64,000 nt of DNA from Octopus vulgaris (taxonomy: Eukaryota): NCBI GenBank assembly GCA_951406725.2, contig OX597826.1:26164001-26228000 (forward strand), in the 5' to 3' direction. Positions 3,927 to 39,829 of the stretch are shown in pieces. How positions within the stretch are numbered: position 1 is the first letter of the stretch; the number at the start of each line of letters is the position of its first letter. A program made the translations under genes and the position numbers. The notes under the pieces are model-generated. The model searched no databases, was not told where the DNA came from, and saw only the letters and a program-made list of their open reading frames with translations.

Positions 3927-4029
3927 ATGAAAAGCGCAATGATTGTGATTAACGTAATCTTCTACTTCGCTGTAATGGTATGTCTGGCAAATGGTGCTGC
4001 CATAAAGTTGGAACCAAAGATAAGTAAAG
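3927..4029 (+). CDS. Gene 1 exon 1: signal peptide of a secreted Cys-rich protein
   Basis: Encodes [34 protein letters not shown] plus 1 nt. It is 103 nt like gene 2 exon 1 and colinear with it. The donor AG|GCAAGT lies at the position of the GT donors in the paralogs. Confidence 0.8.
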
Positions 4030-4084
4030 GCAAGTGGTAATCTATTTCTATACAGTATATCCATCCATCCGTACACACACACAC

Positions 4085-4092
4085 ATATGTAT

Positions 4093-4167
<75 letters not shown>

Positions 4168-4185
4168 CATATATATATGTATATG

Positions 4186-4237
<52 letters not shown>

Positions 4238-4310
4238 CATACATACATATACATATGTATATACTTATATATGTACATATATATATATATACATATATAT
4301 ACATATACGT

Positions 4311-4344
<34 letters not shown>

Positions 4345-4370
4345 ATATACATATACATATATATATATTT
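4085..4370. repeat. Compound (TA)n/(TACA)n microsatellite, representative of dozens in the window
   Basis: Seen directly. Similar tracts occur at 1828-1936, 15918-16015 (TATC), 28140-28350, 50638-50802, 53283-53385 (TATC), 58438-58560 and 60263-60330 (ATT). Confidence 0.95.
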
Positions 4371-4630
4371 GTATGTGTAATTGATAATTGTTCCAAATTA
4401 ATTAATTTCACCCTTCATTGTTACTCATAAACCATATTCATCCCAGTAAATGACCACAGCACTTTGTCTTGGCTACACGCGGGTGGGAAGGGACTGGTGA
4501 CACAAGCTTTCATTCATACTTTGAATTTGGTGATACTAGCTGTGGCTTCTAGCTCGCTCTGATACTGAGTTGAGTTGGTGCCTTCTAGTATCTCAAAATT
4601 CAATATTCAATCATTCATGATTGTTAGTAT

Positions 4631-4722
4631 CCTGCGCTGATGAAAGAAGAAGTCTGGGTAAAGTAGAGTTATCTAATTCTTATGCTTTCCTAAGACTTGA
4701 TCTCGAAACGTACGTCCGTAGG
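4631..4722 (+). ncRNA. Type I hammerhead ribozyme motif with long stem II
   Basis: Stem I CCTGCG/CGTAGG, core CTGATGA (4637), stem II A-AGA...TCT-C with an AGTCT/AGACT extension, GAAA, palindromic stem III ACGTACGT and triplet GTC (cut after 4716). Confidence 0.7.
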
Positions 4723-4913
4723 TGACTTAAAACTGTATGATAGATTGCCGTTAATTCATTCTCTTTTACCTGTTTGTGTTTGCCTTTCAAATGCTGTGCC
4801 TTTACTGTGATCTCCTTTTAGTAGAAGAAATAGCTATAATCTCTTTGACTGCTATTTCTAAATTCGGTGTGTGGTAAGGCAATTCGTTGCTAAACCCTTA
4901 ATTGCTTAGTATT

Positions 4914-4974
<61 letters not shown>

Positions 4975-4975
<1 letters not shown>

Positions 4976-5200
4976 TATACATATCCACATATATATACTT
5001 TCTTCAACAAAATATTTAAAAGGAACATCTTTATATGACAGTCCGACTGTTTGCCAAGCAAATGCGAAGCAATGATTGAAGTAAATGGTGAATATGCTCC
5101 GGAATAGCCATTTAAAGATGTTTTTGTTACATGTTGTTAGTGTTTTTGTTGAATAACATTTGTTGACAAAACGCTGCAATAATTATGCATCAACCCAATA
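4975..5200 (+). mobile_element. Mariner 3'-end fragment (related copy at about 2880-3050)
   Basis: Both copies end ..GAATATGCTCCGGAATA..TATGCA(T/C)CAACC(C/T)AATA and encode a WEAVIEVDGEY-like transposase C-terminus. Confidence 0.55.
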
Positions 5201-5220
5201 TATATGTATATATATATATA

Positions 5221-5490
5221 TATTGACAAGGGGGGGGGCAAATACCCTGAAACGCGTCTGTAGCTGTCTGACTAGCAGTGTGAAGCGGCTGACCTCCCTT
5301 GTTCGAAGGTTCTAATGGACACAGTTTGTGTGTCATATAGCTATCATAAGGCGATGGCCTCATGGAGCTAATCAGCGACAGCTTTTAGTCTTATATCTAT
5401 AAGATTGCCATATTAATGTGGCGATAACAATTAATTTCCAGTAACGCTGTCGTAATCTCTTTTAGAGAGACTTAGTAATTTTAATATTTC

Positions 5491-5495
<5 letters not shown>
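5221..5495 (+). mobile_element. 5'-truncated relative of the 363-nt HHR repeat family
   Basis: TTGACAA-GGGG..CCCT-GAAA-CGCG-TC-TGTAGC is followed by sequence that aligns to the reverse complement of 36732-37000. Flanked by (TA)n. Confidence 0.7.
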
Positions 5496-5561
<66 letters not shown>

Positions 5562-5588
5562 TGTATGTATAAAGATATGTATGTATAG

Positions 5589-5622
<34 letters not shown>

Positions 5623-5680
5623 GCATGATATATCGCCGTACTTGAATAGTTAATTCTCTTTTTTTATATTAAATTTACAG

Positions 5681-5893
5681 GTGATAGTACTTATGAAAGA
5701 GTTCTTGTAGAGAAACTGATGGAAAAGATTCAGTTTGATCGAATGCTCGAGAATAATGATATCGAACCTCAGAATGAAATACTGGTCACTGAACTTGCTG
5801 AAAATCGTGATTTGCAAAATCTTGAACATATGAGATGTTCTTGGAATCAGAATATAGGGGAATGCTGTGTTGGGCTGTTTAGACTCCCTCGAT
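5681..5893 (+). CDS. Gene 1 exon 2: acidic pro-region and start of Cys core
   Basis: Acceptor TTTACAG|, donor |GTAAGT, phase 1-1. Encodes (G)DSTYERVLVEKLMEKIQFDRMLENNDIEPQNE...RCSWNQNIGECCVGLFRLPR, homologous to 29701-29919. Confidence 0.85.
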
Positions 5894-6438
5894 GTAAGTA
5901 TTGTTTGTTTATTTGCCCTTCTTTCAATTTATTTGAAATATATAAATTCAGTGTGTGGAAAAGATCGTCAGTTTTAACGATAAGTTATAACTGTTTGGTA
6001 ATGTAAAACTCAAAAGACAGAATGACTAAAATCTCACGGTAAATTGCCAGTGTTGATACAGCGACGGATGTAAAGCCTCGTGATATTTGTTTTCCAACTC
6101 TGAGTTCTGAGTTCAAATCGCACCCAAGATCAAATTTGCCTTTCGACCTTTCGTGGTTGACCAATCCACGGCGGTCTATTGATGGAACAGAAAATATATC
6201 ACAGCAGATACCTAATGTTATATGTTCCATACCTTTGCGTTCTGAGTTCAACTCCGGCCATGGCCTAATTGTAGCCTACGTAATTAATAGAGGAGTCAAA
6301 CGTGAGCTACTTCAACTTTCATGCGCAGATAGTGCAATAAGATGGGCTGTACGGCAAAGCGTGAAGTGATCTGCCAATTTTCAGTTTCAGATTCAAGTAG
6401 CTAACGTTAATTTCTGTAATCAACAAATATATATATAT

Positions 6439-6503
<65 letters not shown>

Positions 6504-6635
6504 TGTCTATCTGTCTCACTCTCTCACTGTCTCTCTCGCTCACTGTCTTTATATATACATATATATTTTTTAATATATAAAACAGTGTTTGGGTGTGTGC
6601 GTGCGTGCGTGCGTACGTGTTTGTGTGTGTGTGCG

Positions 6636-6673
<38 letters not shown>

Positions 6674-7340
6674 CGTATGTTTCTTATGGATTGGAAGAGA
6701 GTTGCTGATTTTGAAGTATAAGGTAGCAAAAGATTCAGTAATCTTTCAGCTACCAAACATAGTATATTTTTTGCTCAACACTTTTTTACTACAAAAGTAG
6801 CCTTGAAAATATGGTCGGGTCCCACTATTTTAAGGTCTTTAGCTAAGGGAGGCTGAACAATATTTATGTATTAGACAAACCATAATGAGAAAATGCTTAG
6901 AATACAAGTTTAAAATACATGTTTAAAAAGTTTTACCAGGGAATGAAACTTCAAAGATATAGTGTCAACTTTAATAGTATTATTTAGTAGATAATATTTT
7001 AATGTGAAGTATGTTTGTCGGTTTTTTGTTTTGCCTAGAGTTGCCTCTGATGTAGCAGACCCATCACATAGTTATTTTTTTCTTCCTGAAATACTGTAAA
7101 TTTGTGTCCTTCTTTCGATGAAAGGGTGTGTTTAAAGAGTGATTTGGGTGCAATTTGTGGTAGTTGAAGTCACCATAAACACGCCTCTGTGTGTGTGTGT
7201 GTATTTTCTTGTGGTGCAAAAAAAAAAACATTTTCTCAAAATACTTTGCAAAGTAATTTTATGAGAAATCGGGACATCTTTCTTACTACTAACCATTCAA
7301 CTTCAAGTTACAATTGTTAATTGTTGGATGTCAAGTAGAG

Positions 7341-7565
7341 TGAGATGGCAGAAACGTTAGCACGCCGGGCGAAATGCTTAGCGGTATTTCGTCTGTCGTT
7401 ACGTTCTGAGTTCAAATTCCGCCGAGATCAACTTTGCCCTTCATCCCTTCGGGGGCGATAAATAAAGTATCAGTTTCGCACTGGGGGCGATATAATCGAC
7501 TCAATCCCTTCGTCTGTCCTTGTTTGTTCCCTCTATGTTTTGCTCCTTGTGGGCAGTAAAGAAAT
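7341..7565 (+). mobile_element. SINE family B
   Basis: TGGCAGAAACGTTAGCACGCCGGGCG...GAGTTCAAATTCCGCCGAG...GTGGGCAGTAAAGAAAT. Recurs at 9736, 12983(-), 20127(-), 51850(-), 59333(-) and 61400(-). Confidence 0.8.
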
Positions 7566-7574
7566 ATATATACA

Positions 7575-8863
<1,289 letters not shown>

Positions 8864-8864
8864 A

Positions 8865-9420
8865 TAATGGTTTGTTGCCAACTTAATGAAGCAGTCCCAG
8901 GAAACGGACGAATGTTACTGTTATTTAGTCCCATGAAACGGCGTTTCTAATTGGCTACGTGACGCAAGCGTTATGTGTCCTTAAGTTTTCAAACAGAAGA
9001 GATAAGCTCCTCCACCCAGCAAAGCCAGCATCCAGATACTAGTTTCAGAGCTTTGCACTTCGCCAGTCTGGAGAAGCTTGGCCTTGCTAGCTGACAATCT
9101 GCTGTTGAATTCTTATACTATTACAAGTGAATTACATTCGCTGATCTACATAAATAGAAATGTTACACTTCTAAATCTTTCACAGAGTGTTATGCTGCAA
9201 CAACTCGATAAAGTGATGGCATGTTGGCAACTTAATGTAACAGTCCCAGGAAAGGGAAGAATGCTACTGTTGTTTAGCCTCAAGAAACGCCGTTTATAGT
9301 TCGCTAAGCGGCACAAACGTTCTGTGTCCTTATGTTTTCAAAGAGGGGAGATAAGCAACTCCACCCAGCATAGCCAGCATCCAGCGAGTAGTTTCAGGGT
9401 TATTGCACTTCATCAGACTG

Positions 9421-9425
<5 letters not shown>
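8865..9425 (-). mobile_element. Diverged tandem repeat (about 350-nt period, 1.6 copies) with two decayed HHR motifs
   Basis: 8865-9075 aligns with 9215-9425. Minus-strand motifs are 9031-9072 (TCCAGA CTGGCGA AGTGCaaaGCTCT GAAA CTAG TA TCTGGA) and 9380-9422 (TCCAGT CTGATGA..GAAA CTAC TC GCTGGA). Confidence 0.65.
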
Positions 9426-9464
<39 letters not shown>

Positions 9465-9570
9465 ACACACACATGCTTGTGGGTTTTCTCTATCATAATA
9501 TTGACTTTACTCACTAAACAGATCGAATGTTGTTCTTCTTGTTGAAGCCATATAACATAATGATATACAT

Positions 9571-9659
<89 letters not shown>

Positions 9660-9735
9660 TACAGAGAGGGAAGGAGTGTGTATGTGTGTGTGAGAGAGAG
9701 AGAGAGAGACAAAGAGAGACAAAGAGAGAGAGAGT

Positions 9736-9960
9736 CGGCGAGCTGGAAGAATGGTTAGCACGCCGTGCGAAACGCTTAGCGGTATTTCGTCTGCCGTTAC
9801 GTTCTGAGTTCAAATTCCGCCGAGGTCGACTTTGCCTTTCATCTGTTCGGGGTCGATAAATTAAGTACCTGTTACGCATTGGGGTCGATGTAATCGACTT
9901 AATCCGTTTGTCTGTCCTTGTTTGTCCCTTCTGTGTTTAGCCTCTTGAGGGCAATAAAGT
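9736..9960 (+). mobile_element. SINE family B
   Basis: Full-length match to the other family B copies. Confidence 0.8.
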
Positions 9961-10008
9961 AATCAGAAAGAGAGAGACAGATAGATAGATCGATATATAG
10001 ATAGATAA

Positions 10009-10049
<41 letters not shown>

Positions 10050-10090
10050 GAGATAGATAGAGAGAGAGATAAATAGACAGATAGATAGAT

Positions 10091-10185
<95 letters not shown>

Positions 10186-10191
10186 CAGAGT

Positions 10192-10523
10192 GAAGGCGCG
10201 TGGCTCAGTGGTTAGAGCATCGAGCTTACGATCGTGAGGTTGTGAGCTCGAATCCCGGAACGGGCGGCGTGTTGTGTTCTTGAGCAAGACACTTTATTTC
10301 ACGTTGCTCCAGTTCACTCAGCTGTAGAAATGAGTTGCGACGTCACAGGTGCCAAGCTGTATCGGCCCTTGCCTTTCCCTTGGAGAACACTGGTGGCGTG
10401 GAGAGAGGAGGCCGGTATGCATGGGCGACTGCTGGTCTTCCATAAAACAACCTTGCCCAGACTTGTGCCTCAGAGGGTAACTCTCTAGGTGCAAACCCAT
10501 GGTCATTGTCTGACCGAAGGGGG

Positions 10524-10526
<3 letters not shown>
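10192..10526 (+). mobile_element. tRNA-headed SINE family C
   Basis: A-box GTGGCTCAGTGG, B-box-like GCTCGAATCC and central TTGAGCAAGACACTTTATTTCAC..GCTCCAG. Related heads or cores occur at 13219(-), 16017, 20910(-), 26697, 28358, 30487, 32858(-), 39850 and 44850. Confidence 0.75.
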
Positions 10527-10559
<33 letters not shown>

Positions 10560-10560
<1 letters not shown>

Positions 10561-12376
10561 TATAAGAAAAAGGGACAGGCAAAACAGGTTGCTTGACCGC
10601 ATTCAAACGTCTATGTAGATTTAGCCTTTGCTCACTCTCTTCAAATATTTTGATGTCGCATGGTCAGAAGGTTTGAGGTACGTAGCATTTGATAAATCTA
10701 TGATAAATCTTTTTCAAAGGAAAGCTGTGCTGAAGAAGGATGTGAAATATACATGCAATATATATGAAATATATTTCAAAAATATATGGAATATATATTC
10801 AATATGTTTATAATCCAGAAACATGATGTTCACAGATAACCGCCAGACTTCGTATTCGTTATCTATTCCTTCTGTTTTGCATATGTGAATTACAGGGTCT
10901 GTCATGCCCGGAGTCCAACTTTGATAGAAATAAGCATTCTTGACTGCTATTTCTATTTTTTCGGTATGCGGTCAAGCAACCTGTTTTGCCTGTCCCTTTT
11001 TCTTATATACAATATATATACCGAACTTTACAGAAGTTCCTGCCGGTAATCGGCTATATTTACATACCGAATTCTACCAGTAAATAATTGGGGTTTTTTA
11101 AAAGCCTTTATAGAAATTATTTACTCTTATCTTTATATTACTATTTGGATTTTTCACTCCCTTTGACAACCTATTTTTGTAATGCGCATGGCAGAATTTT
11201 TGGAGGGAAGATTTATGAATTCAAACGTCTATGTAGATTTAGCCTTTGCTCACTCTCTTCAAATATTTTGATGTCGCATGGTTAGAAGGTTTGAGGTACG
11301 TAGCATTTGATAAATCTATGATAAATCTTTTTCAATGGAAAGCTGTGCTGAAGAAGGATGTGAAATATATATGCAATATATATGAAATATATTTCAAAAA
11401 TATATGGAATATATATTCAATATGTTTATAATCCAGAAACATGATGTTCACAGATAACCGCCAGACTTCGTATTCGTTATCTATTCCTTCTGTTTTGCAT
11501 ATGTGAATTACAGGGTCTGTCATGCCCGGAGTCCAACTTTGATAGAAATAAGCATTCTTGACTGCTATTTCTATTTTTTCGGTATGCGGTCAAGCAACCT
11601 GTTTTGCCTGTCCCTTTTTCTTATATACAATATATATACTGAACTTTACAGAAGTTCCTGCCGGTAATCGGCTATATTCACATACCGAATTCTACCAGTA
11701 AATAATTGGGTTTTTTTTAAAAGCCTTTATAGAAATTATTTACTCTTATCTTTATATTACTATTTGGATTTTTCACTCCCTTTGACAACCTATTTTTGTA
11801 ATGCGCATGGCAGAATTTTTGGAGGGAAGATTTATGAATTCAAACGTCTATGTAGATTTAGCCTTTGCTCACTCTCTTCAAATATTTTGATGTCGCATGG
11901 TCAGAAGGTTTGAGGTACGTAGCATTTGATAAATCTATGATAAATCTTTTTCAATGGAAAGCTGTGCTGAAGAAGGATGTGAAATATATATGCAATATAT
12001 ATGAAATATATTTCAAAAATATATGGAATATATATTCAATATGTTTATAATCCAGAAACATGATGTTCACAGATAACCGCCAGACTTCGTATTCGTTATC
12101 TATTCCTTCTGTTTTGCATATGTGAATTACAGGGTCTGTCATGCCCGGAGTCCAACTTTGATAGAAATAAGCATTCTTGACTGCTATTTCTATTTTTTCG
12201 GTATGCGGTCAAGCAACCTGTTTTGCCTGTCCCTTTTTCTTATATACAATATATATACTGAACTTTACAGAAGTTCCTGCCGGTAATCGGCTATATTTAC
12301 ATACCGAATTCTACCAGTAAATAATTGGGGTTTTTTTAAAAGCCTTTATAGAAATTATTTACTCTTATCTTTATAT
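10560..12376 (+). repeat. 618/619-bp tandem array (about 2.9 copies) with one HHR motif per unit and an inverted 5' segment
   Basis: Near-identical units start at 10601, 11219 and 11838. 10560-10600 is the reverse complement of 10967-11006. Both flanks are (TA)n. Confidence 0.95.
10725..10835 (+). ncRNA. Type I hammerhead motif (also at 11343-11453 and 11962-12072)
   Basis: Stem I CTGTG/CACAG, core CTGAAGA, stem II A-GGAT...ATCC-A closing an approximately 70-nt AT-rich hairpin, GAAA, stem III ACAT-G-ATGT, triplet GTT (cuts after 10830, 11448, 12067). Confidence 0.65.
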
Positions 12377-12982
12377 ATATATAGATAGATAGATAGATAG
12401 ATAGAAAACGGTCATAAATCAAATAATGTCAGTTTGAACAAAATACTTTCCACCGATATTTTAGTGAGGCAGTTCAGAGCTGGAGCAATCTGAAGATAGA
12501 GGTTTGCTAAAGTTGTTATTATCAGTTCCATTGTAAACGCTGAAAGAGAAAATAAGCTTCTGCGTGCTATTAAGAAAATATTATTTTTATTTTATCTTTT
12601 AGTTTTTGTGTTGTAAAGTGGGGTAACTCTGGTAAGTAATCAGTAAGTTACCTCCCTTGATATTTTAGTTTTCATTATACCGACCATATGCCGTAAAGCT
12701 ACGAAAGCGTCATTGAAACGAAAGTGCGAAGGAAAACTAGACTGGTAAAAAGAAAGAAACAGACAGGTAGAAAGGGAAAGAGTAATAAATTATCGGAACA
12801 ATTATCAGAATGCGATCAAGAGTAATAATAACAATAGCAGCAACAACTATAATAACAATAGTTTCAAATTTTGCCACAAGGGCAGCATTATGAGTGAGGG
12901 GATGAGTGGATTACATCGATTCCAGTATTTCACTAGTACTCAATTTATCGATCCTGAACGCTGCAGCAGAGGAAAAACCAAT

Positions 12983-13560
12983 TTCTTTACTACCCACAGG
13001 GGGCTAAACACAGAAGGGACAAACAAGCACAGACAAGCGGATTAAGCCGATTAAATCGACTCCAGTGCGTAACTGGTACTTATTTAATCGACTCCGAAAG
13101 GATGAAAGGCAAAGTCGACCTCGACGGAATTTGAACTCAGAACGTACCGGCAGATGAAATACGGCTACGCATTTCGCCCGGCGTGCTAACGGTTCTGCCA
13201 GCTCGCCGCCTTTGCCAGTTTGCCGCCTAAAGAAAGAAGCACTCCGTCGGTTACGGCGACGAGGGTCCCAGTTGATACGATCAACGGAACAACTTGCTCG
13301 TGAACTTAACGTGCAAGTGGCTGAGTACTCCACAGACACGTGTATCCTTAACGTATTTCTGGTGTTGATTCAGCATGACACACAGTGTGACAAGGCCGGC
13401 CTTTTGAAATACAGGTACGATTCATTTTTGCCAGCTGAGTGGACTGAAGCAACGTGAAATAAAGTGTCTTGCTCAAGGATACAATGCGTCGCCGGGAATT
13501 GAACTCACGACCTAACAATCGCAAACCGAATGTCCTAACCACTAAGTCACGCGCCTTCAC
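12983..13560 (-). mobile_element. Adjacent SINEs: family B (12983-13211) and family C (13219-13560)
   Basis: Reverse complements of the family B and C consensus sequences. Confidence 0.75.
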
Positions 13561-13589
13561 TCGCCGCCGAAACGACAACAATAACAATG

Positions 13590-15330
13590 ATAATAATAAA
13601 ACTCAAGAAGTGTAGAATAATGTACTTTGAAAGAGGCAACCTACAGTCCCCAGCAGGGTTAGAATTACCTAATAGAGAACTGATTAAAGAAACTGAAATG
13701 GAAGGCTACAAATATCTTGGCATTCTAGACTTCAATGTGATAATGGAGAAAGAAAGGAAAGAGCAACTAATGATGGAATATTTCCGAAGACTAAGATTGG
13801 CGTTGCGCTCAGAATTGATTGGATGGAATAAAATCCAAGCATTAATACATGGGCGATGATAGCATCACTTCGGTATGGAGCTGGAATCATAAGATGATTC
13901 CTGATGAACATGGATACGAAGATAAGAAAAATGTTGGCAGTGCACGGAGCCTTCCATCCTAAGAGTGACACTAATAGGCTGTAGCTGTCCAGAAGAAACG
14001 GTGGGAAAGGTTTAATAAGTTGCGAGGATAATGTTGAAGCAGAGGAAAGCAGCTTAGGGTGGTATGTAAAATATATTGTGGAACGAGTGTTGAAACATGT
14101 GAAGAAGGCCGGCGTCTTTGATAATTGTATAGAGAACGAAAGATTTAAAGAAAATAAAGGCATAAAAAAAGTAACAGTATGGAAGGAGAAAATGTACGGT
14201 CAGTTTGCAAGAGATACGAACGCCAAGACAGATACAGAAGATCTGCGTCAATGGATGAGGATATCTATGGATGATAGATATAGAATCATTTATGTACGCA
14301 GCACAAGAACAAGCGTTACGGACTGTCTATGTGAAGTGCAGAATCAACAACACTACCGACAACAGCAAATTCAGAATGTGTGGTGAGAGGGGTGAAATGA
14401 TATCGCACATCATTAGCGAATGCCCGAAATTGGTACAAGGCTAATATAAAAGACGACATAACAATGTGGCAATTGGAAGCTCTGTAGAAATCGCGGCCTA
14501 CAAACAACAAAGAAAAACTTCAGTAGAATTCAATGAGAATGAAGACTGCAAAACCATGTGGGATGCAATGGTTCAGTGCGATCACTGGGCCGGACATCGG
14601 AAAGAGGACATTGTTGTGGTGAATAAAAAAGAAAGGACATTCATGTCCTGGTAACAACACAATCAAAGTTAAAGAAGAAAAACAACTGTTACGGTTTGAA
14701 GTGAAAAATATGACGGTTGTGGTCAATGAGGGGAGGCGACGAGATACTAAGAGTAAAAATCACACTTGGATGCATCAGCACTAAAAAACCAAACATGACT
14801 CAAAAAGATTGGTATAAATGTGGGGACGCTGGCAACGGGTAGTGTCAGAGCTATGCCGTCGGGAACTTCGGTTCCTGGTAGGGCCACCCTAGGCGGATTG
14901 GTCTGACACCGAGTGGTATTAGGGCTACAACCCGGCAGATGGGGCTCTGGTGAAAATCCTCGGAGTGTCTGTTTCGGCAACCGGCGGTTCCTCGGTCGTT
15001 CTGCCACTGCGTCTGCGGACAATCTGCGGCAAACAGGATGTTTCTACATGCGGGATTGTTGGGGACAGCTTGTGAAATCCACATATTCCCACGAAACTTC
15101 TTCCATGAACTCTCAATTCTGGCTCGCTATCTCCAGTGAACTGGCGCAGGACCGTCGTGCGTGGGCTGCCATGTTTCGAGATGCCTCGAGGGTGGTAGAA
15201 GAAGCCGACTCAACCCGCCAAGGGTGAATGTTGCCACAAGTACAAGTAAGTAAGTGGAGAATACCTACAAAAATTTGCATTGCTTGGAATTGCAAGAATT
15301 CTTCGCAGGGTTTTTGAAGCATGACCAGCA
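13590..15330 (+). pseudogene. Decayed R4/Dong-like non-LTR retrotransposon 3' half (RT thumb, CCHC, restriction-like endonuclease)
   Basis: Motifs GYKYLGIL, NKIQAINTWA, HGAFHPKSDTNRL.LSRRNGGKGL, MYGQF, AAQEQAL, RMCGE..SHIISEC..RHNNVA, WD...DIVVVNKKE and LQKFALLGIARIL, with many stops and frameshifts. A separate insertion occupies about 14830-15250. Confidence 0.75.
14830..15250 (+). mobile_element. Non-autonomous RTE-like LINE 3' fragment nested in the R4-like element
   Basis: Encodes ELAQDRRAW, a typical RTE C-terminus, and ends in a short CAAGTA/AAGT repeat tail. It is GC-richer than its flanks. Confidence 0.55.
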
Positions 15331-15800
15331 AGTAAGTGTCACCTTAGTCTTCTGGCTGTGTACAGCTGACACATTTCATCATACCAAGCAAAATAAACTG
15401 AGAGATTTCATCATATACTAATAAGAAGTGCTGTACGGTAGAAGCACTAAAATATGAAATTGCACGAATGCGGGCCGTGAACAGAGTAACTGACATCCCA
15501 GTTGTTGGAGAGGCATTGGGAGTATTATCAATTTGAGCAATTTGTTGGAGAAAGTGAATTGACGAGATGAGGGTAGGACATGTTCAGAAAACTGCACTAT
15601 TGGGTACAGCGTTGATTTTGAGATTTTTACTTGAATGATAAATATCGTGAAAAGAAACACTGACAAGAGGTTGTCGTCTGCTCTTAAAAGCTTAGCCGCA
15701 CCAGCTGAAATGAATGTCTCTGAGGAGTGAAATGATATTAATAATATTAATCTCGATTAAGAAAAAAAATATAATGAGAATGATTATTTTTCTTTTTCAG

Positions 15801-15884
15801 TATGTTTTCGAATGAAAATTTTAAACAAAGCGTTGCAGTTCTCATTAAGAGTAGGTGGTCATGTGATTCTGAGGACAACTTTCC
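15801..15884 (+). CDS. Gene 1 exon 3 (84 nt)
   Basis: Polypyrimidine acceptor TTTTTCAG|, donor |GTGAGT, phase 1-1. Encodes (L)CFRMKILNKALQFSLRVGGHVILRTTF and has the same length as 33558-33641. Confidence 0.85.
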
Positions 15885-15918
15885 GTGAGTATATTGTATT
15901 ATTAACACATGTGATATA

Positions 15919-16016
<98 letters not shown>

Positions 16017-17211
16017 GGTGGCACGTTGTATCATTGAGCACGACACTTTATTTCAATGTTGTTCCAGTCCTCTCAGTTGGCAAAAATGAGTTGTACCTGT
16101 GTTTCAAAGGGCCAGCCTAATCACATTCTGTGTCACACTGAATCTCCCTGGGAACTACGTCAAGGCTATGCGTGTTTGTAGAGTCCTCAGACATATGCAC
16201 GCTAATTTCACGAGCAGAACGATCTGTTTATCGGACAATCTGGAACCCCTGCCGTCGTAACCGACGGAGTGCCACTAGATTTTTCTGAAAACAACTTGCA
16301 GACGCAAGTGCTACTAGTTTAATTCTCCTTATACTGGATGCTAGCAAGTTCATGGCATTATCAGGAAAGAAATCGCGCCGTTTCGAGGCATTCTTCTCGA
16401 CGGCATCATTGCGCACCGCCTCCACCACCACCACCACCACCACCACTCCTCACTGAAGCGAAGCCCCACTTGCTAGATCAACGGATTATTAGGTTTTGCT
16501 CAATATTCCTCCAGCCATTGCTCATCGTCTCTTTTTAACCAAATCTATGTATATGTATATGTATGTTGGTGTGTATATAAATAAATAAAAGCGCCAACTC
16601 TTCTAATTTAGAGCAGCTTATGAATCGCATAAACAATAGCAAAATTTCAATAACCCACCTACTAGATCTAACGAGCATTTGTATCTAAACACCACCCAAG
16701 AGGATGTAAACCGCAATGATAAACATATTACTATTGTTTATGCAATGCTTAAGCTGGTCTAAATTAGCAGAGTTGGCGTAGGATACCTTTACGGTATGTC
16801 GATTAAAAATAGTATGATGCCAAGGAAGGAGATGTAAACTGCAATGATAAGCACCAATTACGACCAATTTGTAGTACTAGAACTACTTATGATACAGCTA
16901 ACACGGTAACAACGCCGGTAAATGGAGTCGGGACTGCCTTATATACAAATAAATACGATAGATGCTCATGCAGAGAAAAATAAAAATGTCCGTTGATGAA
17001 TCTCTGTATGAGTACGACTACGACCGATCTGTATTGTAGAAATACTTATGATACAGCGAACACGGTAAAAACATCAGTAAATGGATTCGGGACTGCCATC
17101 TGCGATTTTAGTTTTGATTTTCTATATAAATGAAGATATTTCCTCCATCTGGGTGCTTTTCTTTCTACAAAAGGTTACAGTGCGGAACAGTCATTTTAGT
17201 GAGTTATATTT

Positions 17212-17317
17212 ATCACGCGACAAGATACATCTGCACCAACGGATGCTCCTGAAACAGTTGTCGAGTGTCCTACCCATGAGGAATCGATGCTAGACGTGTC
17301 GAAACAATTGCTGTGAT
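17212..17317 (+). ncRNA. Decayed hammerhead scaffold, probably inactive
   Basis: Stem I ATCAC/GTGAT, stem II GATACATCT/AGACGTGTC and GAAA-CAATTG are present. The core reads GCGACAA and the triplet is GCT. Confidence 0.4.
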
Positions 17318-17683
17318 TAATAATAATTTCTCGTATATTCCATATTCTGTTTCATTTGCCATATACCTAACGATCACTGCGAAAGTGACCGTGCTTTACC
17401 AGTAAACTACTTGGTATATATATATATATATATATATATTTTGAGTGTGTGTGTTTGTGTGTGTGTTAAAGGAAAATGAAAGCAAACCCAAGGCAGGAGA
17501 ATTTTATCAGATCATTTTGAATATTATAATTACAATAAAGGTGAATGAAAGTTAGAAAAAGTAATGAAAAGCAGAAGTAAATAGAAGTAATGCCTTGGTT
17601 TTGTTTTCTTTTTCCTTTAGTACACACACACACATATATTACATATAATAATTTAGCTGTTATTACTCTTTTCCTATTTTCAG

Positions 17684-18036
17684 GAGGAACATTTACTAAA
17701 ACTTTCGGTTTCAATTTGGGATTTGCTACAATTTCATTTACATTGGCGGTGGAAACTTTAACCCCCCAGGAATTTAAAGCGTGCTTCCGTATAGACTACA
17801 GGGTTTTAATTTTTCATCTCACAACTAATCTCGGTTGTATCCACAAATATTTTCATTCCAATGAAATTAGCTCTCTGGACAGTATAGAAGATTGGAATAT
17901 AAATGATAAAGTTTCTTTTGGGACACAAGTGTTTGGAGCTGACAAGCCTAAGAGACTGGAATACGTTGGCGAAATGAACGAAAATGAAAATTCTCTTATT
18001 TGGCCCAAAGACGCCGAGAAGCAGCGAGCGAATTGA
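17684..18036 (+). CDS. Gene 1 exon 4 (terminal). Spliced CDS is 753 nt, 250 aa; secreted 6-Cys protein, DUF4773-like
   Basis: Acceptor TTTTCAG|. Encodes (R)GTFTKTFGF...FKACFRIDY...NLGCIHK...KQRAN-TGA. The four exons join in one frame without stops. AATAAA at 18073 and 18179. The domain name is from recalled Cys pattern, not a search. Confidence 0.85.
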
Positions 18037-26374: not shown

Positions 26375-26477
26375 ATGAACACCACGATGTATGGGGTAAA
26401 CATTATCTTCTATTCAGCTATAATGGTATGTCTGGGAACTGGTGCTATCATGAATTTGGAACCAAAGATGACCGAAG
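26375..26477 (+). CDS. Gene 2 exon 1: signal peptide
   Basis: Encodes MNTTMYGVNIIFYSAIMVCLGTGAIMNLEPKMTE plus 1 nt, donor AG|GTAAGT. The 5' UTR (TCTCACTAGCGAGC..TTTGAGAAGACGAAATG) matches gene 1. Confidence 0.85.
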
Positions 26478-27646
26478 GTAAGTGGCACTCTATTTCCATA
26501 CAGTATACGCATACATATAAGGTATATCTGGATCGTCGAGTTCAAGTGGTTCGAAGTTTTTTAAGTGGGCTGGCGGCAACCATAAACAGTTAATTTTTTT
26601 TACTATTGACCACAACTCTTGTCTGTATGAATTTATGTATATATTGCTGTATGGATGAATGGATTCATGCTTTAGGTATATATATATATAAGTCCCAGTT
26701 GTTAGGGCAGTGGACTCATGGTCGCAGGATCGCGGTTTCGATTCCCAGATCGGGCGTTGTGAGTATTTATTGAGCGAAAACACCTAAAGCTCCACGAGGC
26801 TCTGGCAGGGGGTGGTGGCAATCCCTGCTGTACTCTTTCGCCACAACATTCTCTCACTCTTTCTTCTTTTGGCCTGCTCTCTTAACCGGCGGGGTGGCGT
26901 CATTTGAAGGCTAAAACAACGCGAAGCGCATTGTGACTAGTGATGTATAAGTCACGGTAATTACAGTGATATATATATATATATATATATATAACATTAA
27001 TTATACGTACAATCTGAATATAAACGCTTTGAAATTATTCAAAGAAAATAAGACTTTGCAGCTCATCAAAGTGTCACGCTTAGAGCTAAGTGCAAAACAC
27101 CAAGAAAAGCTAATCATTAAACGATATATTGCAAACAAGGGGGCGAACAAATCCCAGCCAACAAGTCCAGTGGAACAGTAGACCAGCTAGTTTCAGGTCA
27201 CAGATATTGTATCGTTAAGCAGCTGGGGTTAAAAAGACTAGTAACCTTGTTTTATGCAGAACAATCATGTTGAGGTGGCAACAAACATTACTTTTCAGTA
27301 AACCTCGTATAGAGATTTTTAAAAATAGCAACTTTGCTTGTTGCAAGGTCAGCGGCTGTGTGTCGCTTGTTTATTTATATATTGCGAACTGGGACGAACG
27401 ACTGTCGTTTCTGGCAGACAGGTGTACTAATATTGGGGAAGGGTGAGACTCTGAAACCAGGTGGTCTGTTGATCTTGTTGCCGCTAGATTGGAGTGGTCC
27501 GCTTCCTTGTTTGCAATATATCGAACATAGATATTGTGTCGTTAACCAGGTACAGGATGTGTCCTCTTGGGGTTAAGAAGAGATGTAACATTGTTCTATG
27601 CATATCAACCACTTTAATATGGTAAAAACTGTTACTTATGTGCGTT

Positions 27647-27704
<58 letters not shown>

Positions 27705-27710
<6 letters not shown>

Positions 27711-28137
27711 TAAATGAAAGAATGGAGTCGAACGAAGATGTTAACAAAATTCCTTTACTCTCGACACATGTTTCGAAGATTATCGCTCTGTTTACCATGT
27801 AGGCAATCATCGAAATTTTTGTTTGTCTTGTTGTCGAGAGAGGCTCCCTTTCTTTCCTGATGAGAAGATTGCATCATGCACCCTTTATTCCTTCGGAATG
27901 AAAATATGCTGTCTTCGAAACATGTCTCGAGAGTAAAGGAATTTTGTTAACATCTTCGTTCGACTCCATTCTTTCATTTATTCATATACAACACACAAAT
28001 TTCCGCACATGAACCCGGAGTTTCTACCATTGACAGGTCGCTTCAACCGTGTTTTCTGACGTGAATTTGCTACCCAGGTTTCGGTTAAACGAATTTTCCA
28101 TGCTGACGATAAACATAGGATAATTCATTGACCTACT

Positions 28138-28140
<3 letters not shown>
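27705..28140 (+). mobile_element. Non-coding PLE-like element with an HHR motif (27852-27933) and an inverted 5' segment
   Basis: CTTTC CTGATGA GAAGAT..GTCTTC GAAA CATGTC TC GAGAG. 27705-27780 is the reverse complement of 27912-27987 and keeps the better-paired GAAACATGTGTC. Both flanks are (TA)n. Confidence 0.7.
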
Positions 28141-28209
<69 letters not shown>

Positions 28210-28247
28210 TATAATATAATATAATATAATATATATATATGTATATG

Positions 28248-28353
<106 letters not shown>

Positions 28354-28913
28354 ATGTTGAGGTGTGTGGCTTAGTGGTTAGGGTGTCAGCACCATGATCG
28401 TGAGATTGTGGTTTCGATTCCCGGACCGAGTGACGCGTTGTGTTCTTGACCAAAACACCTCATTTCACGTTGTCCCAGTCCACTCAGCTGGCAAAAGTGG
28501 GTAACGCTGCGATAGACTAGCGTCCCGTCTAGCTGGGGAACATATACGCTATAGAAACTGGGAAACCGGGCCCATGAGCCTGGCTAGGTTTTAACAGGGC
28601 GCGTTGTTATTGTGTAAATATATATATGAATATATGCAACAACATCAGTTTCAACAGCCAAGTAAAGTTACAGCGAAATGGTCATCCTCCTAGGAAACAA
28701 AAACAGTCAAAGAATATCTTCGAACACATGAAATTCATTACTTTTTCACGTGCCTCATTAATTAGACTGCTGCCTAGGAGAAGTTTTAGATGAATAGATT
28801 GACCCCAGTACTTTTGTTTTTGCTAAGCCTGACACTTATTCTATAGGTATCATATGCCGACCCGCTAAGTTATAGAGACGTAAACACACCAATCCCGGTT
28901 GTCAAGTGGCAGT

Positions 28914-28955
<42 letters not shown>

Positions 28956-29700
28956 GCGGTCTTCTAGTTTGGGTCAACTAAATCCATATTTAGAAGGCTT
29001 TGGTCGGCCTGACTCTATTGTAGAAGACTTTTGCTCAAGGTGTCACGTAGTGGAACAGAACCTGGAACCATATGGTTAGGAAGCAAGCTTCTTTTATTCA
29101 TTATATTGGCCATAAAGTCCTTACATAGAAGGGAAGCTACGGGCTGGACATATGCATAATGTTATGGAATCACAAACGAAAAATGATGATAAATGAGGGT
29201 AACAAGCAACGCCCGCCGATTGCTGCTTACCCGAGAAAGCTTCTTAACACACAGCGACACCTACGCCTATCGAGATATTTACAAAATATTTTATTTTAAT
29301 TCTTAACAAATTAATGAGCAGGAAGATATTCAGCAGCATAAGACCAGTCATTTAAAAAAAGGGGACCAAAAGAAACTTTCTAAATTCGAACAGGAAGTAA
29401 TAAATGAAATAGCTGTATCGTAGTTATGATGTGCAACATGAAACGTCAGATATGGTTAAACTACAAACTATGACTAACGACTAAAACCTTAATTTCTAAA
29501 TCCTTAATTTCTAATCTTCAGCTGAAATAAAGACACACACACACACGTGTATGCCCGTTTGGCTATATCTCTTCCAGATAAAATAACTACGCATCTGCAT
29601 ATACATGTATGAATGAATGTGTCTATCTTAATACATATACTCCCCACCTGTAATGTGTTGTCATACTTAAATAGTTAACGTTATTGTATTGAATTTATAG

Positions 29701-29919
29701 ATGAAATTGTTTATGAAAGAGCTGTTTTGAAGAAACTGACAAAAAATCTCCAGATTGATCGAATGATCGAAAATAATGCAGCAGATAACGAACCTCAAAA
29801 TGAAAACCCGACCAACGAAGTTGCTGAAAAGGATGGTTTGAAAAATAGTGCACAGATGCAATGTTCTTGGAAAGGGAATGCGGGGAAATGTTGTACTTAT
29901 CTGCGCCATCTTCCTAAAT
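29701..29919 (+). CDS. Gene 2 exon 2
   Basis: Acceptor TTTATAG|, donor |GTAAGT. Encodes (D)EIVYERAVLKKLTKNLQIDRMIENN...QCSWKGNAGKCCTYLRHLPK. Confidence 0.85.
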
Positions 29920-31059
29920 GTAAGTATTTTTCGTCTAATTGCCATTTTTAAATTTTCTTTGCAACATCTAAATTTAGCCTGCGAATATTGCTGTTGCTGT
30001 AAGTTTGAGCGAATTAGACAATATCTTTGCTCATGTAAGTCTCGAAAGCTAAAATAACATGGGGGATTGGAAGAGTGGATGGAACCTTTGGGCAGAAGAA
30101 TATCGAGCGGTATTTGAGAAGAGATTAACATTAAAGGAGTTATAATGTAGCAAGGCTGGCAACATCGTTAGCACGATGGGACGAAATGCGGCTAAGCATT
30201 TCGTCCGTCTCTACATTCTAAGTCCAAATTCTGCTGAGATCGATTTTGGCTTTCATCCTCTCAGGATTGATAAAATAAGTAGCAGTTGAGCACTGCTCTT
30301 AATGTAATCAATTTATTCCTTCCCCCAAATTGCTGGCTTTGTGTGAACATTTGAAAGCAATATTAAAAGACTCAGTAACCCATGCGCAATACCTAAATAC
30401 AAGTCCCGAAAATTTCGTGCTTTGTTTATATGTGAGTAAGTACAACTTTCGTTACTGGTTTAAACAGTCGTAATATGGTTACTGTGGAGGCGCGTGGATT
30501 AGTGGTTAGGGTGTCAGCATCATGATCGTAAGATTGTGGTTTCGATTCCTAGACCGGGCGACGCGTTTTGTTCTTGAGCGAAATACTTCACTTCACGTTG
30601 CTCCAGTCCACTCAGCTGGCAAAAATGAGTAACACTGCGATAGACCGGCGTCCCGTCCAGCTGGGGAACACATACGCCTTTGAAACCGGGAAACCGGGCC
30701 CATGAGCCTGGCTAGGCGTTAAAAGGGCGCATTTATTATTAATATGGTTACTACTTATCATTCCAGATTTCCTAAAGAATCTCGTTATCTCGTTATCTCC
30801 TTCCTGTTCACCTTAATTTCATTCTTCCTGTTTCTTTACCTGTAGTTTAGTTCCACTTTTTTATTTGTTTCTATCATGCATCATCTTTCACTCTCTTAAT
30901 CGCGTGTTCTTAATCGTTTAGTCTGTTTTGCTTCCTTTTCTTCATCCATTCCCTCCTTCCTTCTTTCTTTAATTCCTTTCATTTCTTTCTTTTATTTCCT
31001 TCCTACCTTTCACCTTTTCTACCGGTCAGTCTCTCACTTTCTTACATTCCTATTTAAAT

Positions 31060-31745
31060 TCTAGAAAACGCAAGATTAAAAATAATAATAACAATTGAAT
31101 TATATGTAGTAAGTAATAATTAAAATCAAACTAAAGTATAATATAATTGTAACATAACAAAAGTAAAAATAGCAATTGGTATAAAATTGCATCAATGATT
31201 TGAACATGAATAAGTGGTTTCACATGAATGGGAATAAATTAAAAATAAAATTAGCGTGCAGAAATGGAATAGTCCAGATGGATAATAAAAAATTAAATTA
31301 AAGAAAAGATTATTGTCTATAAAGTATACAATGTAGAGGAAAAAGAAGATTTGAATACATGGAGGAAAACACCTTCGAAAAGTGTCTTGGTGCGACTATG
31401 AAAGATATCTAATCAGAGGCAGTAAATTGGCCACAATAGAAGCAAGGTTCGAGTCAACGGAGCGTGCAAGGGAGTACTGGACTCGAACTTGCAAAGTGGA
31501 AATATTCCATTTTTACCTCTATATCTGGGACGTAGGACGTCCCGGAAAAAAATTTAAAATGCCCCCCCCCCCCCGAAGTAGAGGTAGGCTGGATTGTATC
31601 AACACTTCTATACAAGAGGGAGGACAAAATACAATTGTTCGAAATTGCAAGAGACGGGCCTACAATTCCAGTCTATTATATATTTTGAGTATTGTTATCA
31701 TTAGCGATATCAAGATATAACTTTGTATTTTGTATTTTACGTGTA

Positions 31746-31779
<34 letters not shown>

Positions 31780-31870
31780 TGTACATGTAATATGTACACA
31801 TATATATACACATATATACATGCACTAGCATTATGGCCCGGCAACGACGGGTCTTTAATGCTAGTGTATT
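31060..31870 (-). mobile_element. Partial inverted copy of the HINE-like element at 47757-48945
   Basis: High-identity reverse complement of 47750-48535. Confidence 0.75.
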
Positions 31871-33557
31871 TATATATTTTGCTATCTTAGTATTCATAAC
31901 GGAATCAGTTGTGTTGCAATTAAGAAAGCAAGGGGAGCGAATTCTTCCCACGGGCACATTTTTCAAACCTGGTGTCTTATCAAAAATTTTCCTAACTCTT
32001 TGCTTACCTATATTAGTAATAGTAAGTTTTATACGTAATGGTATAGTTACTGAAACATGAAATTAATGACTGCAGAAAAAAAAAAAACTGAATTCATTAT
32101 GACTAATGAAGTATTCCGCATAATATAAGAAATGAGTTAGAAATTGCTTGGTATATGTGACGGTACCTTTCTTTTATGAGCTCGCCCCCCTCTAAAAATA
32201 CAAACTGGCTACACCTCGGAACGGAAGTGATTGTAACTTCTTTTGCAGTACCATATCTAGAGGCTGCTCCCGATTCGAAAAGCTGGTTCTGATTATCGCA
32301 TGGAATTCACATTTATCTGATTTTTGAAATTCATAAGACTGTTCGGCACCAAGGCAAGTGTCTTTCGCTCAATCCCTGGGGTGATCAAAGCCTTGTGAGT
32401 GGTTTTGTTAGAGAGAAACTGAAAGGCGCCCATTACTATTTTAGTGTCTCTTATCAATCCCCTACAGCGAGGCTGTGTGGATGCTTTAACATTTTATTTG
32501 ATTACAGCAGCTTTAGTTTAGAATTAAGAGTTGTGTAAGCAACAAAACATCAAAGTCGACATAGCTTAAAAGAAAGCAAATGAGACAAGGTATCGTTGTT
32601 TCATGCACCGATTCTCACATCTCGCACCGATCGAGTCACTCACATATAACTCTGCCTTTCTGTCTACATGTGGATATACGTGGCTTAGTGGTAAGAGTAT
32701 TGCACTCATGATCAGTGATTGTGGTTTCGATTTCTGGACAGGGCGATGAATTGTGTTCTTCAGCAAAACACTTCATTTCCCAAGCTCTCGTCCACTTAGC
32801 TGGCAAAAGTAAGTAATTCTGCGACGGAACAGCGTCGCGCCTCGGCCTTGGGTGAAGAGATATATATACGATATATTGTTTGTTCTTTCTCGAGCCATGC
32901 CTGGCTCATAAGGGTCGGTTTCCCGGTTTCCTTGGCGTATAGGTTCCCCACCTGGACGGGACGCCGGTCCGTCGCAAGTGAGCTGCATGATGTAGGAGCA
33001 AAGAGTGAGAGAGTTTGTGGCGAAAGAGCCATTACCTTCTGCCGGAGCCGCGTAGAGCTTAGGTGTTTCGCTCATAAACACACACATCACCCGGTCTGAG
33101 ATTCAAACCCGCAATCCCTCGACCGCGAGTTCACTGCTCTAACCACTAGGTCATGTGCCTCCACATATACGATATATACCCCTCAGTATTTTTGAAGCAC
33201 TGCAGTTCATTGTATCAACTGAAAATTGCTGTCCTTGTGGATAAATCTGCGACTGTTATAAGGCGATGTATTTTCAAAATCATCTTAAGTTCGATCAAAT
33301 TCATTAGACGTAAGTTTTCTAGGATTTTGCGTCTTGGGTTCAAATTCTGTACTTCGTCGCTTTCGGGATCTACAGAATAAAATGCCTGTTAAGAATTAGG
33401 GACAGTATAACCGACTAACACCGTGTAGAGTTTTACCCATGTGATGTTGTTCGTAAAATCCCTTATTATTTCTATGATTAATGACTAAAACGTAATATAA
33501 ATGTTATTTATTCCAACTAAATGAAAAAAACATAACGTAAACAATTTCTTTTTTCAG

Positions 33558-33641
33558 TATGTGTTCGTATGGCAGCTTTTGAATATATGTTGCAATTCAG
33601 CATAGAATTAGGTGGTTTTGTTCTTATACATAGAACTTACC
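33558..33641 (+). CDS. Gene 2 exon 3 (84 nt)
   Basis: Acceptor TTTTTTCAG|, donor |GTGAGT. Encodes (L)CVRMAAFEYMLQFSIELGGFVLIHRTY, with 12/28 residues identical to gene 1 exon 3. Confidence 0.85.
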
Positions 33642-33829
33642 GTGAGTATCTTTCATGATATTAATAAAATAATCATAGATTTATTTATATTTTGTTTTTG
33701 TAGCAAACTGGTTTGTTTACCCGCTTTGTTGTAGCGTTATCTTATTTTTAAAAGGAATTATTTTGAGGTTCATTACAGAATTCATGGCAGACAGTTTCTC
33801 TTTCTCATCGAAGCTGGAGGCTTGCTACA

Positions 33830-33883
<54 letters not shown>

Positions 33884-34938: not shown

Positions 34939-35258
34939 ATGGTACTTTCTCCAAAACCTACTCATTTCATTATGGAACTGTACATATACAGTTTAAATTT
35001 GTAGTGGAACGTATTAGCCATCGTCACCTCAAGGCATGCTTCAAAATATCATATGAAGTTCAATCTTACCATTTCTCAAAGTCTCTCGGCTGCATAAACA
35101 AACATTTTCCTGCTATTGAAAATATCCACGTGAACAGTATATCGGATTTGAGTTCGAATGGTAAAATTTCTTTTGAGGCACAAGAATTTGAAACTGGAAA
35201 TCTTAACAGTATGGAATACCTTGGTGAAGAAAACCAAAACAAAAATGTTCTCATTTAG
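34939..35258 (+). CDS. Gene 2 exon 4 (terminal). Spliced CDS is 726 nt, 241 aa
   Basis: Acceptor TTTACAG|. Encodes (H)GTFSKTYSF...LKACFKISY...SLGCINKHF...KNVLI-TAG. Cys spacing is identical to gene 1. The 3' flank with AATAAA at 35674 is homologous to gene 1 near 18179. Confidence 0.85.
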
Positions 35259-38175: not shown

Positions 38176-38227
<52 letters not shown>

Positions 38228-39725: not shown

Positions 39726-39773
39726 TATATTCTTCTATACACAATCACACACACCCATATATATATATATCTA

Positions 39774-39829
<56 letters not shown>

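What the first reader, a model, noticed from the sequence alone, without database searches (positions are those of the whole stretch)
10560..12376. 618-nt x3 hammerhead array in sense orientation inside intron 2 of gene 1
Each unit has CUGUG-CUGAAGA-A[GGAU..70-nt AU hairpin..AUCC]A-GAAA-CAU-G-AUG-UU/CACAG. The units differ by only a few bases, so the array is young. Because it is sense to the host gene, host pre-mRNA would be a ready multimeric precursor for 618/619-nt monomers. The unit is longer than the few-hundred-nt metazoan retrozyme units I recall. The GUU triplet and A-A at 10.1/11.1 are non-optimal, so activity may be weak.
Basis: partly seen in the sequence, partly recalled or inferred. 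Interest (0 to 1): 0.7.

Follow-up and report, generated by a model that had tools for sequence, protein, structure and literature searches.

The report
Penelope-pasted hammerhead retrozyme in octopus intron
This is one of several hundred copies of a small, protein-less jumping repeat that carries a predicted self-cutting RNA and was likely pasted into a TA repeat by a Penelope-type retrotransposon enzyme; the kind is already known, and its place inside a host intron is likely incidental.

Summary
Observation confirmed: 2.87 units (618/619/539 nt, 3-7 differences), three type I hammerhead motifs, predicted cuts after 10830/11448/12067, sense in intron 2 (5894-15800) of an octopus gene. It has a Penelope-type footprint: a 43-nt inverted arm, (TA)n on both sides, and outer ends at two fixed unit positions (about 420 and 539). 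In 29 of 33 two-armed insertions exactly one end lies at about 539 (expected 16.6), and 12 locus-private variants occur in both arms against 2 confined to one. The GUU triplet and A-A at 10.1/11.1 are family-wide, not local decay. The 618-nt length is within the published range (51-972 bp), and intronic copies are common. No autonomous element with a matching terminal repeat was found; cleavage, circles and expression are untested. Verdict: new member of animal non-LTR retrozymes (non-autonomous Penelope-like elements). This scan has already reported the same two-armed footprint for other families in this genome.

The parts
10526..10564 (.). Left (TA)n target tract; its right part overlaps the TA-rich end of the inverted arm
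   Evidence: TRF; sequence
10560..10602 (-). Short inverted arm: unit positions ~366-408 (to ~420 counting TA microhomology, 10549-10602); its 3' end points outward at site A; 2-nt AT overlap with the direct arm
   Evidence: 43 nt, 100% complementary to 10966-11008, 11584-11626, 12203-12245; blastn
10601..12376 (+). Long direct arm, 2.87 tandem units, 3' end at site B (unit position ~539)
10601..11218 (+). Unit 1 (618 nt)
11219..11837 (+). Unit 2 (619 nt)
11838..12376 (+). Unit 3, partial (539 nt)
10725..10835 (+). Type I hammerhead motif 1; predicted cut after 10830
11343..11453 (+). Type I hammerhead motif 2; predicted cut after 11448; long AU-rich stem II; stem III ACAUGAUGU is an odd palindrome (self-duplex -8.2 kcal/mol, no stable hairpin alone)
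11962..12072 (+). Type I hammerhead motif 3; predicted cut after 12067
10831..11448 (+). Predicted monomer RNA 1 (618 nt)
   Evidence: inferred from cut sites
11449..12067 (+). Predicted monomer RNA 2 (619 nt); as a circle it folds at -154.5 kcal/mol against -119.3 +/- 5.8 for 40 shuffles
11558..11638 (+). Conserved 3' block (unit 340-420, in every unit) shared with diverged hammerhead families; ends in site A
   Evidence: 5152 pattern matches in the genome, 0 for the control
12373..12405 (.). Right TA/GATA target tract
5894..15800 (+). Intron 2 of host gene 1 (octopus protein of 250 aa; one homolog is named DUF4773 domain-containing)

Best explanation
This is one insertion of a dispersed, non-coding tandem family with a type I hammerhead motif in every unit, likely a non-autonomous parasite of Penelope-like retrotransposons (an animal retrozyme) whose position in the host intron is likely incidental. 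Shown: dispersal, tandem units, two opposed arms, fixed outer ends, (TA)n targets, no coding frame. Inferred steps: (1) Some array is transcribed, from its own or a host promoter. (2) The hammerheads cut, probably as dimers or with protein help, because stem III is a palindrome and stem I is only partly formed in the models. This releases 618-nt monomers, which a host ligase may close. (3) A Penelope-type RT/GIY-YIG protein binds the RNA, probably at the conserved 3' block, and nicks both strands of a (TA)n tract. (4) Both nicks prime reverse transcription on the same RNA from two internal TA-rich sites 119 nt apart (A ~420, B ~539). (5) One cDNA runs for more than one unit (here 2.87, most simply round a circle), the other stops early (here ~45-55 nt), and they join head to head. 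(6) Some arrays later grow by unequal exchange.
For: Dispersal: 381 exact 20-base core matches; 237 matches from 40 of 1353 candidates scored. Footprint: 33 of 40 insertions have element 3' ends at both outer ends; of 73 such ends, 34 lie at 532-551 and 18 at 420-421; nearly all run into (TA)n. In 29 of 33, exactly one end is at site B (expected 16.6; 0 of 100000 permutations). A sister family 63-71% identical stops at the two equivalent places (about 10 and 10 of 25 loci by a rough rule). An intact 781-aa Penelope-like family in this genome also ends in (TA)n, at one site in 7 of 8 copies and 30 nt further on in 1. One template: 12 locus-private variants lie in both arms, 2 are fixed in one arm only; units differ by 0.57% within arrays and 1.34% between them; only 17 of 111 within-array polymorphisms recur in two or more other arrays, 11 of them at one homopolymer edge. 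Selection: 4 of 131 substitution events fall in 41 hammerhead positions (expected 10.6, p=0.016), and 0 of the 34 array-fixed or shared events. Stem I differs between block-sharing families yet stays paired (CUGUG/CACAG, UCAUG/CAUGA, CUACG/CGUAG, CCACG/CGUGG; descriptor-selected). Literature: tandem plus inverted copy, one-sided tail and (TA)n bias (PMC8557442); both-strand cleavage and two internal RT start sites (PMC11167929); retrozymes as PLE derivatives.
Against: No autonomous element with a terminal repeat like the unit was found: no blastn hit against 5 copies of the 775-aa family, 8 copies of the 781-aa family, or the region 3' of a third, degenerate ORF. No RNA evidence of cleavage or circles was obtained. 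In linear context stem I is mostly unformed (P 0-0.24; 0.25 in the circle). ABAB and AABB unit patterns in L031, L040, L045 and L057 show that part of the copy number can arise by duplication. 13 subfamily variants were in one arm only, against 20 in both. 'Private' is relative to 38 loci. The 119-nt offset is longer than the 30-40-nt tails described. In PMC11167929 the hammerhead was dispensable for insertion in vitro, and in the 2026 preprint 8 of 9 tested dimers did not cleave.
Confidence: 0.75

Rival explanations
1. Same Penelope-type mobilisation, but the template is an uncut linear multimer, the hammerhead is weak or vestigial, and tandem number comes from the source array plus later unequal crossing-over.
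For: Hammerhead mutants still insert in vitro and no RNA ends were seen at the cut site for PAc (PMC11167929); 8 of 9 Xenopus dimers did not cleave; GUU, A-A and low stem I probability; higher-order unit patterns.
Against: Related arrays sharing the same fixed variants (window, L031, L032, L036) share none of their within-array substitutions outside one homopolymer edge; substitutions avoid the hammerhead.
Confidence: 0.3
2. One reading: this copy is a source element driven by the host gene, whose pre-mRNA is cut to 618/619-nt monomers and circles, possibly affecting host splicing or level.
For: Sense, with three intact motifs, in a real intron of a gene whose exons are joined in contigs of one run. 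The window shares all three of its fixed variants with L031, L032 and L036.
Against: Nothing singles this copy out among 381 core matches; two-armed insertions put one arm sense by construction; none of the window's five unit-specific substitutions outside the homopolymer edge recurs in another sampled array.
Confidence: 0.12
3. The unit is the terminal repeat of an autonomous Penelope-like element not yet found, and the arrays are its truncated products.
For: PLE insertions are often 5'-truncated; 24 of 57 Xenopus retrozyme families match PLE ends. My searches scored only top candidates.
Against: No PLE-like ORF joined to the unit or its block in the loci examined (tblastn; one PLE meets a copy tail to tail across a TA tract). 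The unit follows itself head to tail, up to about 13 times.
Confidence: 0.1
4. Assembly artefact or ordinary satellite DNA.
For: Near-identical tandem units between microsatellites are hard to assemble.
Against: Units differ at 3-7 sites; the same period, ends and targets recur on many contigs.
Confidence: 0.03

Closest known systems
Animal non-LTR retrozymes (Cervera and de la Pena 2020, PMC7229834; Li, Clavereau and Pollet 2026, bioRxiv 10.64898/2026.07.22.740005)
   Same: Non-coding tandem units, one type I hammerhead each, dispersed, low GC, co-occurring with Penelope-like elements; length within 51-972 bp.
   Different: Longer than the 170-400-nt RNAs tested in 2020; very long AU-rich stem II, A-A at 10.1/11.1, GUU triplet; no cephalopod family turned up in my searches; expression and circles not shown here.
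EN+ Penelope-like elements and their non-autonomous derivatives (Craig et al. 2021, PMC8557442; Cervera and de la Pena 2014, PMC4209133)
   Same: Partial tandem plus inverted 5'-truncated copy, tail at one end only, (TA)n targets, type I hammerhead with palindromic stem III.
   Different: No ORF; no sequence match to the terminal repeats of the autonomous families examined; offset between ends 119 nt rather than 30-40.
PAc (Poseidon from Anolis) in vitro system (Frangieh et al. 2024, PMC11167929)
   Same: Two internal reverse-transcription start sites downstream of the hammerhead, AT-rich targets, both strands cut and extended.
   Different: There priming used no homology to the target; here both ends fall on TA-rich stretches that resemble the target. 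The template here is non-coding.

Membership tests
Animal non-LTR retrozyme | Two or more consecutive tandem units, each with a complete type I hammerhead motif | tested here: met
   three motifs in 2.87 units; motif fold -25 kcal/mol
Animal non-LTR retrozyme | Non-coding, no LTR features | tested here: met
   longest stop-to-stop frames in the units are 81 aa (+) and 85 aa (-); no tblastn match of the PLE protein to the unit; PBS/PPT not searched
Animal non-LTR retrozyme | Dispersed at many loci as monomers to multimers | tested here: met
Animal non-LTR retrozyme | Expressed as linear and circular monomer RNA | not testable with these tools
   only assembled contigs were offered, none on record as RNA; no reads were laid on the unit
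Animal non-LTR retrozyme | Self-cleavage | not testable with these tools
   needs an assay; models give a competing fold
Non-autonomous Penelope-like element | Partial tandem with an inverted 5'-truncated copy | tested here: met
   33 of 40 insertions; window arm
Non-autonomous Penelope-like element | Tail at one end only (two end sites) | tested here: met
   29 of 33, 0 of 100000 permutations; offset 119 nt, longer than described
Non-autonomous Penelope-like element | Microsatellite (TA)n insertion bias | tested here: met
   flanks printed
Non-autonomous Penelope-like element | Sequence homology to the terminal repeat of an autonomous element | tested here: inconclusive
   no match to three RT/GIY-YIG families; other families in the genome were not enumerated
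Autonomous Penelope-like element | RT plus GIY-YIG ORF between pseudo-LTRs | tested here: not met
Canonical type I hammerhead | Core CUGANGA, GAAA, NUH and paired stems I and II | tested here: met
   GUU is listed among active NUH sites in PMC3138052 (passage)
Canonical type I hammerhead | G10.1-C11.1 pair closing stem II next to the core | tested here: not met
   A-A, then G-C; fixed in 122 of 122 copies on the 3' side; A-C, U-U and A-A occur in other motifs of this genome
Canonical type I hammerhead | Loop 1-loop 2 tertiary contact | not tested
   stem II is extended to about 80 nt; no test run
Dimer-acting metazoan hammerhead | Short palindromic stem III | tested here: met
   self-duplex -8.2 kcal/mol, no hairpin alone; feature described in PMC4209133

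The most novel reading that the evidence does not exclude
Several octopus retrozyme families with different hammerheads share one ~80-nt RNA block that recruits a Penelope-type RT without matching any autonomous terminal repeat, and every two-armed insertion is written from a single RNA circle by two RT events starting at two fixed sites 119 nt apart: a genomic record of twin-primed rolling-circle retrotransposition.
Probability: 0.35. Interest if true: 0.58.

Novelty: new member of a known kind. Interest (0 to 1): 0.33.

Why it matters
The class is known, and Penelope mobilisation of retrozymes through circles was proposed in 2014 and 2020 without a direct test. This family gives two precise start sites, a candidate recognition block and two intact candidate enzymes in the same genome, so the model can be tested in vitro. 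It also offers a natural hammerhead variant (A-A at 10.1/11.1, GUU, 80-nt stem II) that spread to about 380 copies. The intronic copy matters only if it is shown to cut the host pre-mRNA.

Tried and rejected
Rfam at gathering score: 0 hits. Pattern for the same hammerhead with a short stem II loop, as a possible parent: 0 matches. Pfam PF26215 is not in the library. Sequencing runs: no RNA holder listed; no evidence either way on expression. No reads were laid on the unit, so ends and circles stay open. In the one laying made, 3 of 4 runs had no cover of host exon 2, and the run that covered it held next to none of the array's words; absence in contigs is no finding. Search for the autonomous parent: P0005 returned only the 775-aa family; the L135 ORF returned a 781-aa family; neither terminal repeat matches the unit; 19 stretches picked mostly around rarer block variants and 25 sister-family loci held no joined PLE ORF. 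The strand asymmetry as RT wobble error is not significant (p 0.07 and 0.15). My first descriptors missed the window's own motif through a non-greedy match; corrected. Blocked hammerhead in the circle, as in plant retrozymes: not supported, the active fold is isoenergetic with the minimum. Intron-cleavage literature search gave nothing usable. Look-ups of earlier notes by sequence and near this place were empty.

Full report
Observation. The direct array runs 10601-12376 as units of 618, 619 and 539 nt differing at 7, 4 and 3 positions. The isolated motif folds as drawn (-25 kcal/mol, z -2.83). A strict descriptor, written after seeing the motifs, finds 15 in the window, 0 in the reversed window and 1 in 30 shuffles. 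Rfam finds none.

Host gene. Contigs of 1 of 4 runs laid (RNA by guess) cover exon 2 and carry loose ends that match 4004-4023 and 15801-15820. The four exons give an open 250-aa frame with standard or GC-AG junctions. Five homologs were found, all octopus; one is named DUF4773 domain-containing, and they map onto the same four exons. The array is sense in intron 2 (5894-15800).

The family. The unit has 1353 candidates in the genome, of which 40 were scored; an exact 20-base core occurs 381 times. I fetched 38 of those loci; with the window they hold 40 insertions. In 33 of 40 both outer ends are element 3' ends, that is, two arms joined head to head; of 73 such ends 34 lie at unit 532-551 and 18 at 420-421, and nearly all run into (TA)n. 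Both sites are TA-rich, so exact breakpoints are uncertain by about 10 nt. In 29 of the 33, exactly one end is at the far site (expected 16.6; 0 of 100000 permutations; values entered by hand, one corrected from its flank). The window copy is typical: 420 on the left, 539 on the right. All 122 family hammerheads read have GUU and A11.1, and 120 keep GAAA (the 5' core was selected by the search).

One template or many. Over 102 aligned units (506-525 columns; L058 left out of within-array counts), divergence is 0.57% within and 1.34% between arrays; these loci are the closest to the query, so both are low estimates for the family. Of 111 within-array polymorphisms, 17 recur in two or more other arrays, 11 of them at one homopolymer edge. 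Twelve locus-private variants occur in both arms and two are fixed in one arm only; for subfamily variants the split is 20 to 13. This favours one monomer-length template read repeatedly, but ABAB and AABB patterns in four arrays show later duplication or dimeric templates, and a homogeneous linear source outside my sample is not excluded. The window's three units share no derived substitution, so they do not decide this.

Is the hammerhead maintained? Four of 131 substitution events fall in the 41 hammerhead positions (expected 10.6, p=0.016, not corrected for base composition), and none of the 34 array-fixed or shared events. A 3' block (unit 340-420) has 5152 pattern matches, 0 in the control, and sits 108-129 nt downstream of different hammerheads in several families, whose stem I sequences differ but pair and whose stems III are palindromes (pairing was required by the descriptor). 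One sister family, 63-71% identical, stops at the two equivalent sites. Stem III forms a self-duplex (-8.2 kcal/mol) but no hairpin alone, the dimer-type layout of PMC4209133. The monomer circle folds far better than shuffles (z -6.1). Stem I probability is 0.25 in the circle and 0-0.24 in linear contexts, so weak or assisted cleavage is plausible.

Candidate enzymes. A GIY-YIG fragment 2.5 kb upstream belongs to a very young family with an intact 775-aa RT/GIY-YIG ORF. A second intact family has 781 aa and copies mostly 90-99% alike; its 3' ends run into (TA)n, at one site in 7 of 8 copies and 30 nt further on in 1. The 775-aa ORF has the extra cysteine motif that PMC8557442 ascribes to Neptune and Nematis (passage); I built no tree. 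Neither terminal repeat matches the unit, so the partner is unassigned.

Comparison with print. Retrozyme class and proposed PLE mobilisation through circles: PMC7229834 (abstract, passages, Discussion) and PMC4209133 (parts 1-2 of 4). Unit lengths 51-972 bp, about 43% intronic, PLE origin, 1 of 9 dimers cleaving: bioRxiv 10.64898/2026.07.22.740005 (parts 1-3 of 5; supplements not seen; the preprint names four invertebrate genomes, three insects and one coral). Tandem/inverted structure, one-sided tail, (TA)n bias: PMC8557442 (12 passages; supplements not seen). Two internal RT starts, both strands extended, protein-assisted and dispensable hammerhead: PMC11167929 (parts 1-2 of 4). GUU as an active site: PMC3138052 (passages). 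Searches for octopus+Penelope+hammerhead, retrozyme+cephalopod and Penelope+twin priming+tandem+circular RNA listed no description of such a family (listings only; 4 of 5, 1 of 2 and 1 of 1 shown). Twin priming as a term is recalled from the L1 literature.

Earlier notes of this scan. Searches show the same two-armed, two-site reading for 360-, 490- and 535-nt families in this genome. I had seen the arms and both end sites before; the notes prompted the pairing test, the both-arms test and the editing check (negative). They are not independent support.

Verdict. A real and tidy example of a known class. The value lies in the insertion footprint and the shared block, which make the proposed Penelope and circle mechanism testable. 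Interest 0.33; new member of a known kind.

Noticed in passing
window 7462-8760 (+), intron 2 of gene 1; further terminal-repeat copies at 38740-39825: 5'-truncated Penelope-like element: GIY-YIG ORF end plus terminal repeat with a variant hammerhead (CCGAAGA core, U-U at 10.1/11.1, cut after 8621). The 159-aa piece is 100% identical at all 150 sites scored; full copies have a 775-aa RT/GIY-YIG ORF and an upstream 454-aa frame.
   Followed up: partly
window 36731-38177 (-); relative at 5235-5515: Second retrozyme-like array, 363 nt x 3.8, four hammerhead motifs with a U3-A8 core, a 74-nt inverted arm and (TA)n flanks.
   Followed up: partly
window 4632-4915 (+), intron 1 of gene 1: Copy of a different, more abundant hammerhead family (units ~590 nt elsewhere) that shares the 3' block with the array.
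   Followed up: partly
window 53576-54447: Inverted pair of hammerhead motifs (cuts after 53728 on - and 54295 on +) with the same A-A at 10.1/11.1 and an odd-palindrome stem III, in otherwise different sequence.
   Followed up: no
window 27763-27842 (-) and 43274-43362 (+): Two further single hammerhead-like motifs; 15 in all in 64 kb, none found by Rfam.
   Followed up: no
window 3927-18036, 26387-35288, 61019-61111 (+): Tandem cluster of octopus genes: gene 1, a paralog with the same four-exon layout at about 40-50% identity, and a third exon-1-like piece. Gene 1 uses a GC donor at 4030 and starts with a hydrophobic, signal-like stretch.
   Followed up: partly
L031, L040, L045, L057: Unit variants alternate (ABAB) or come in pairs (AABB), pointing to dimeric templates or later duplication; L045 holds about 13 units.
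   Followed up: partly
L049, L053-L066 (most): A subfamily with 642-644-nt units, about 24 nt longer than the window's.
   Followed up: no
L179-L186: Second intact Penelope-like family (781 aa) whose two end sites, 30 nt apart, end in ACAAATATATA and ATCCTATTATA, loosely like the array's two AT-rich end sites; may be chance.
   Followed up: partly
L135:7164-8501: A degenerate Penelope-like element and a copy of this retrozyme family meet tail to tail across one (TA)n tract.
   Followed up: no
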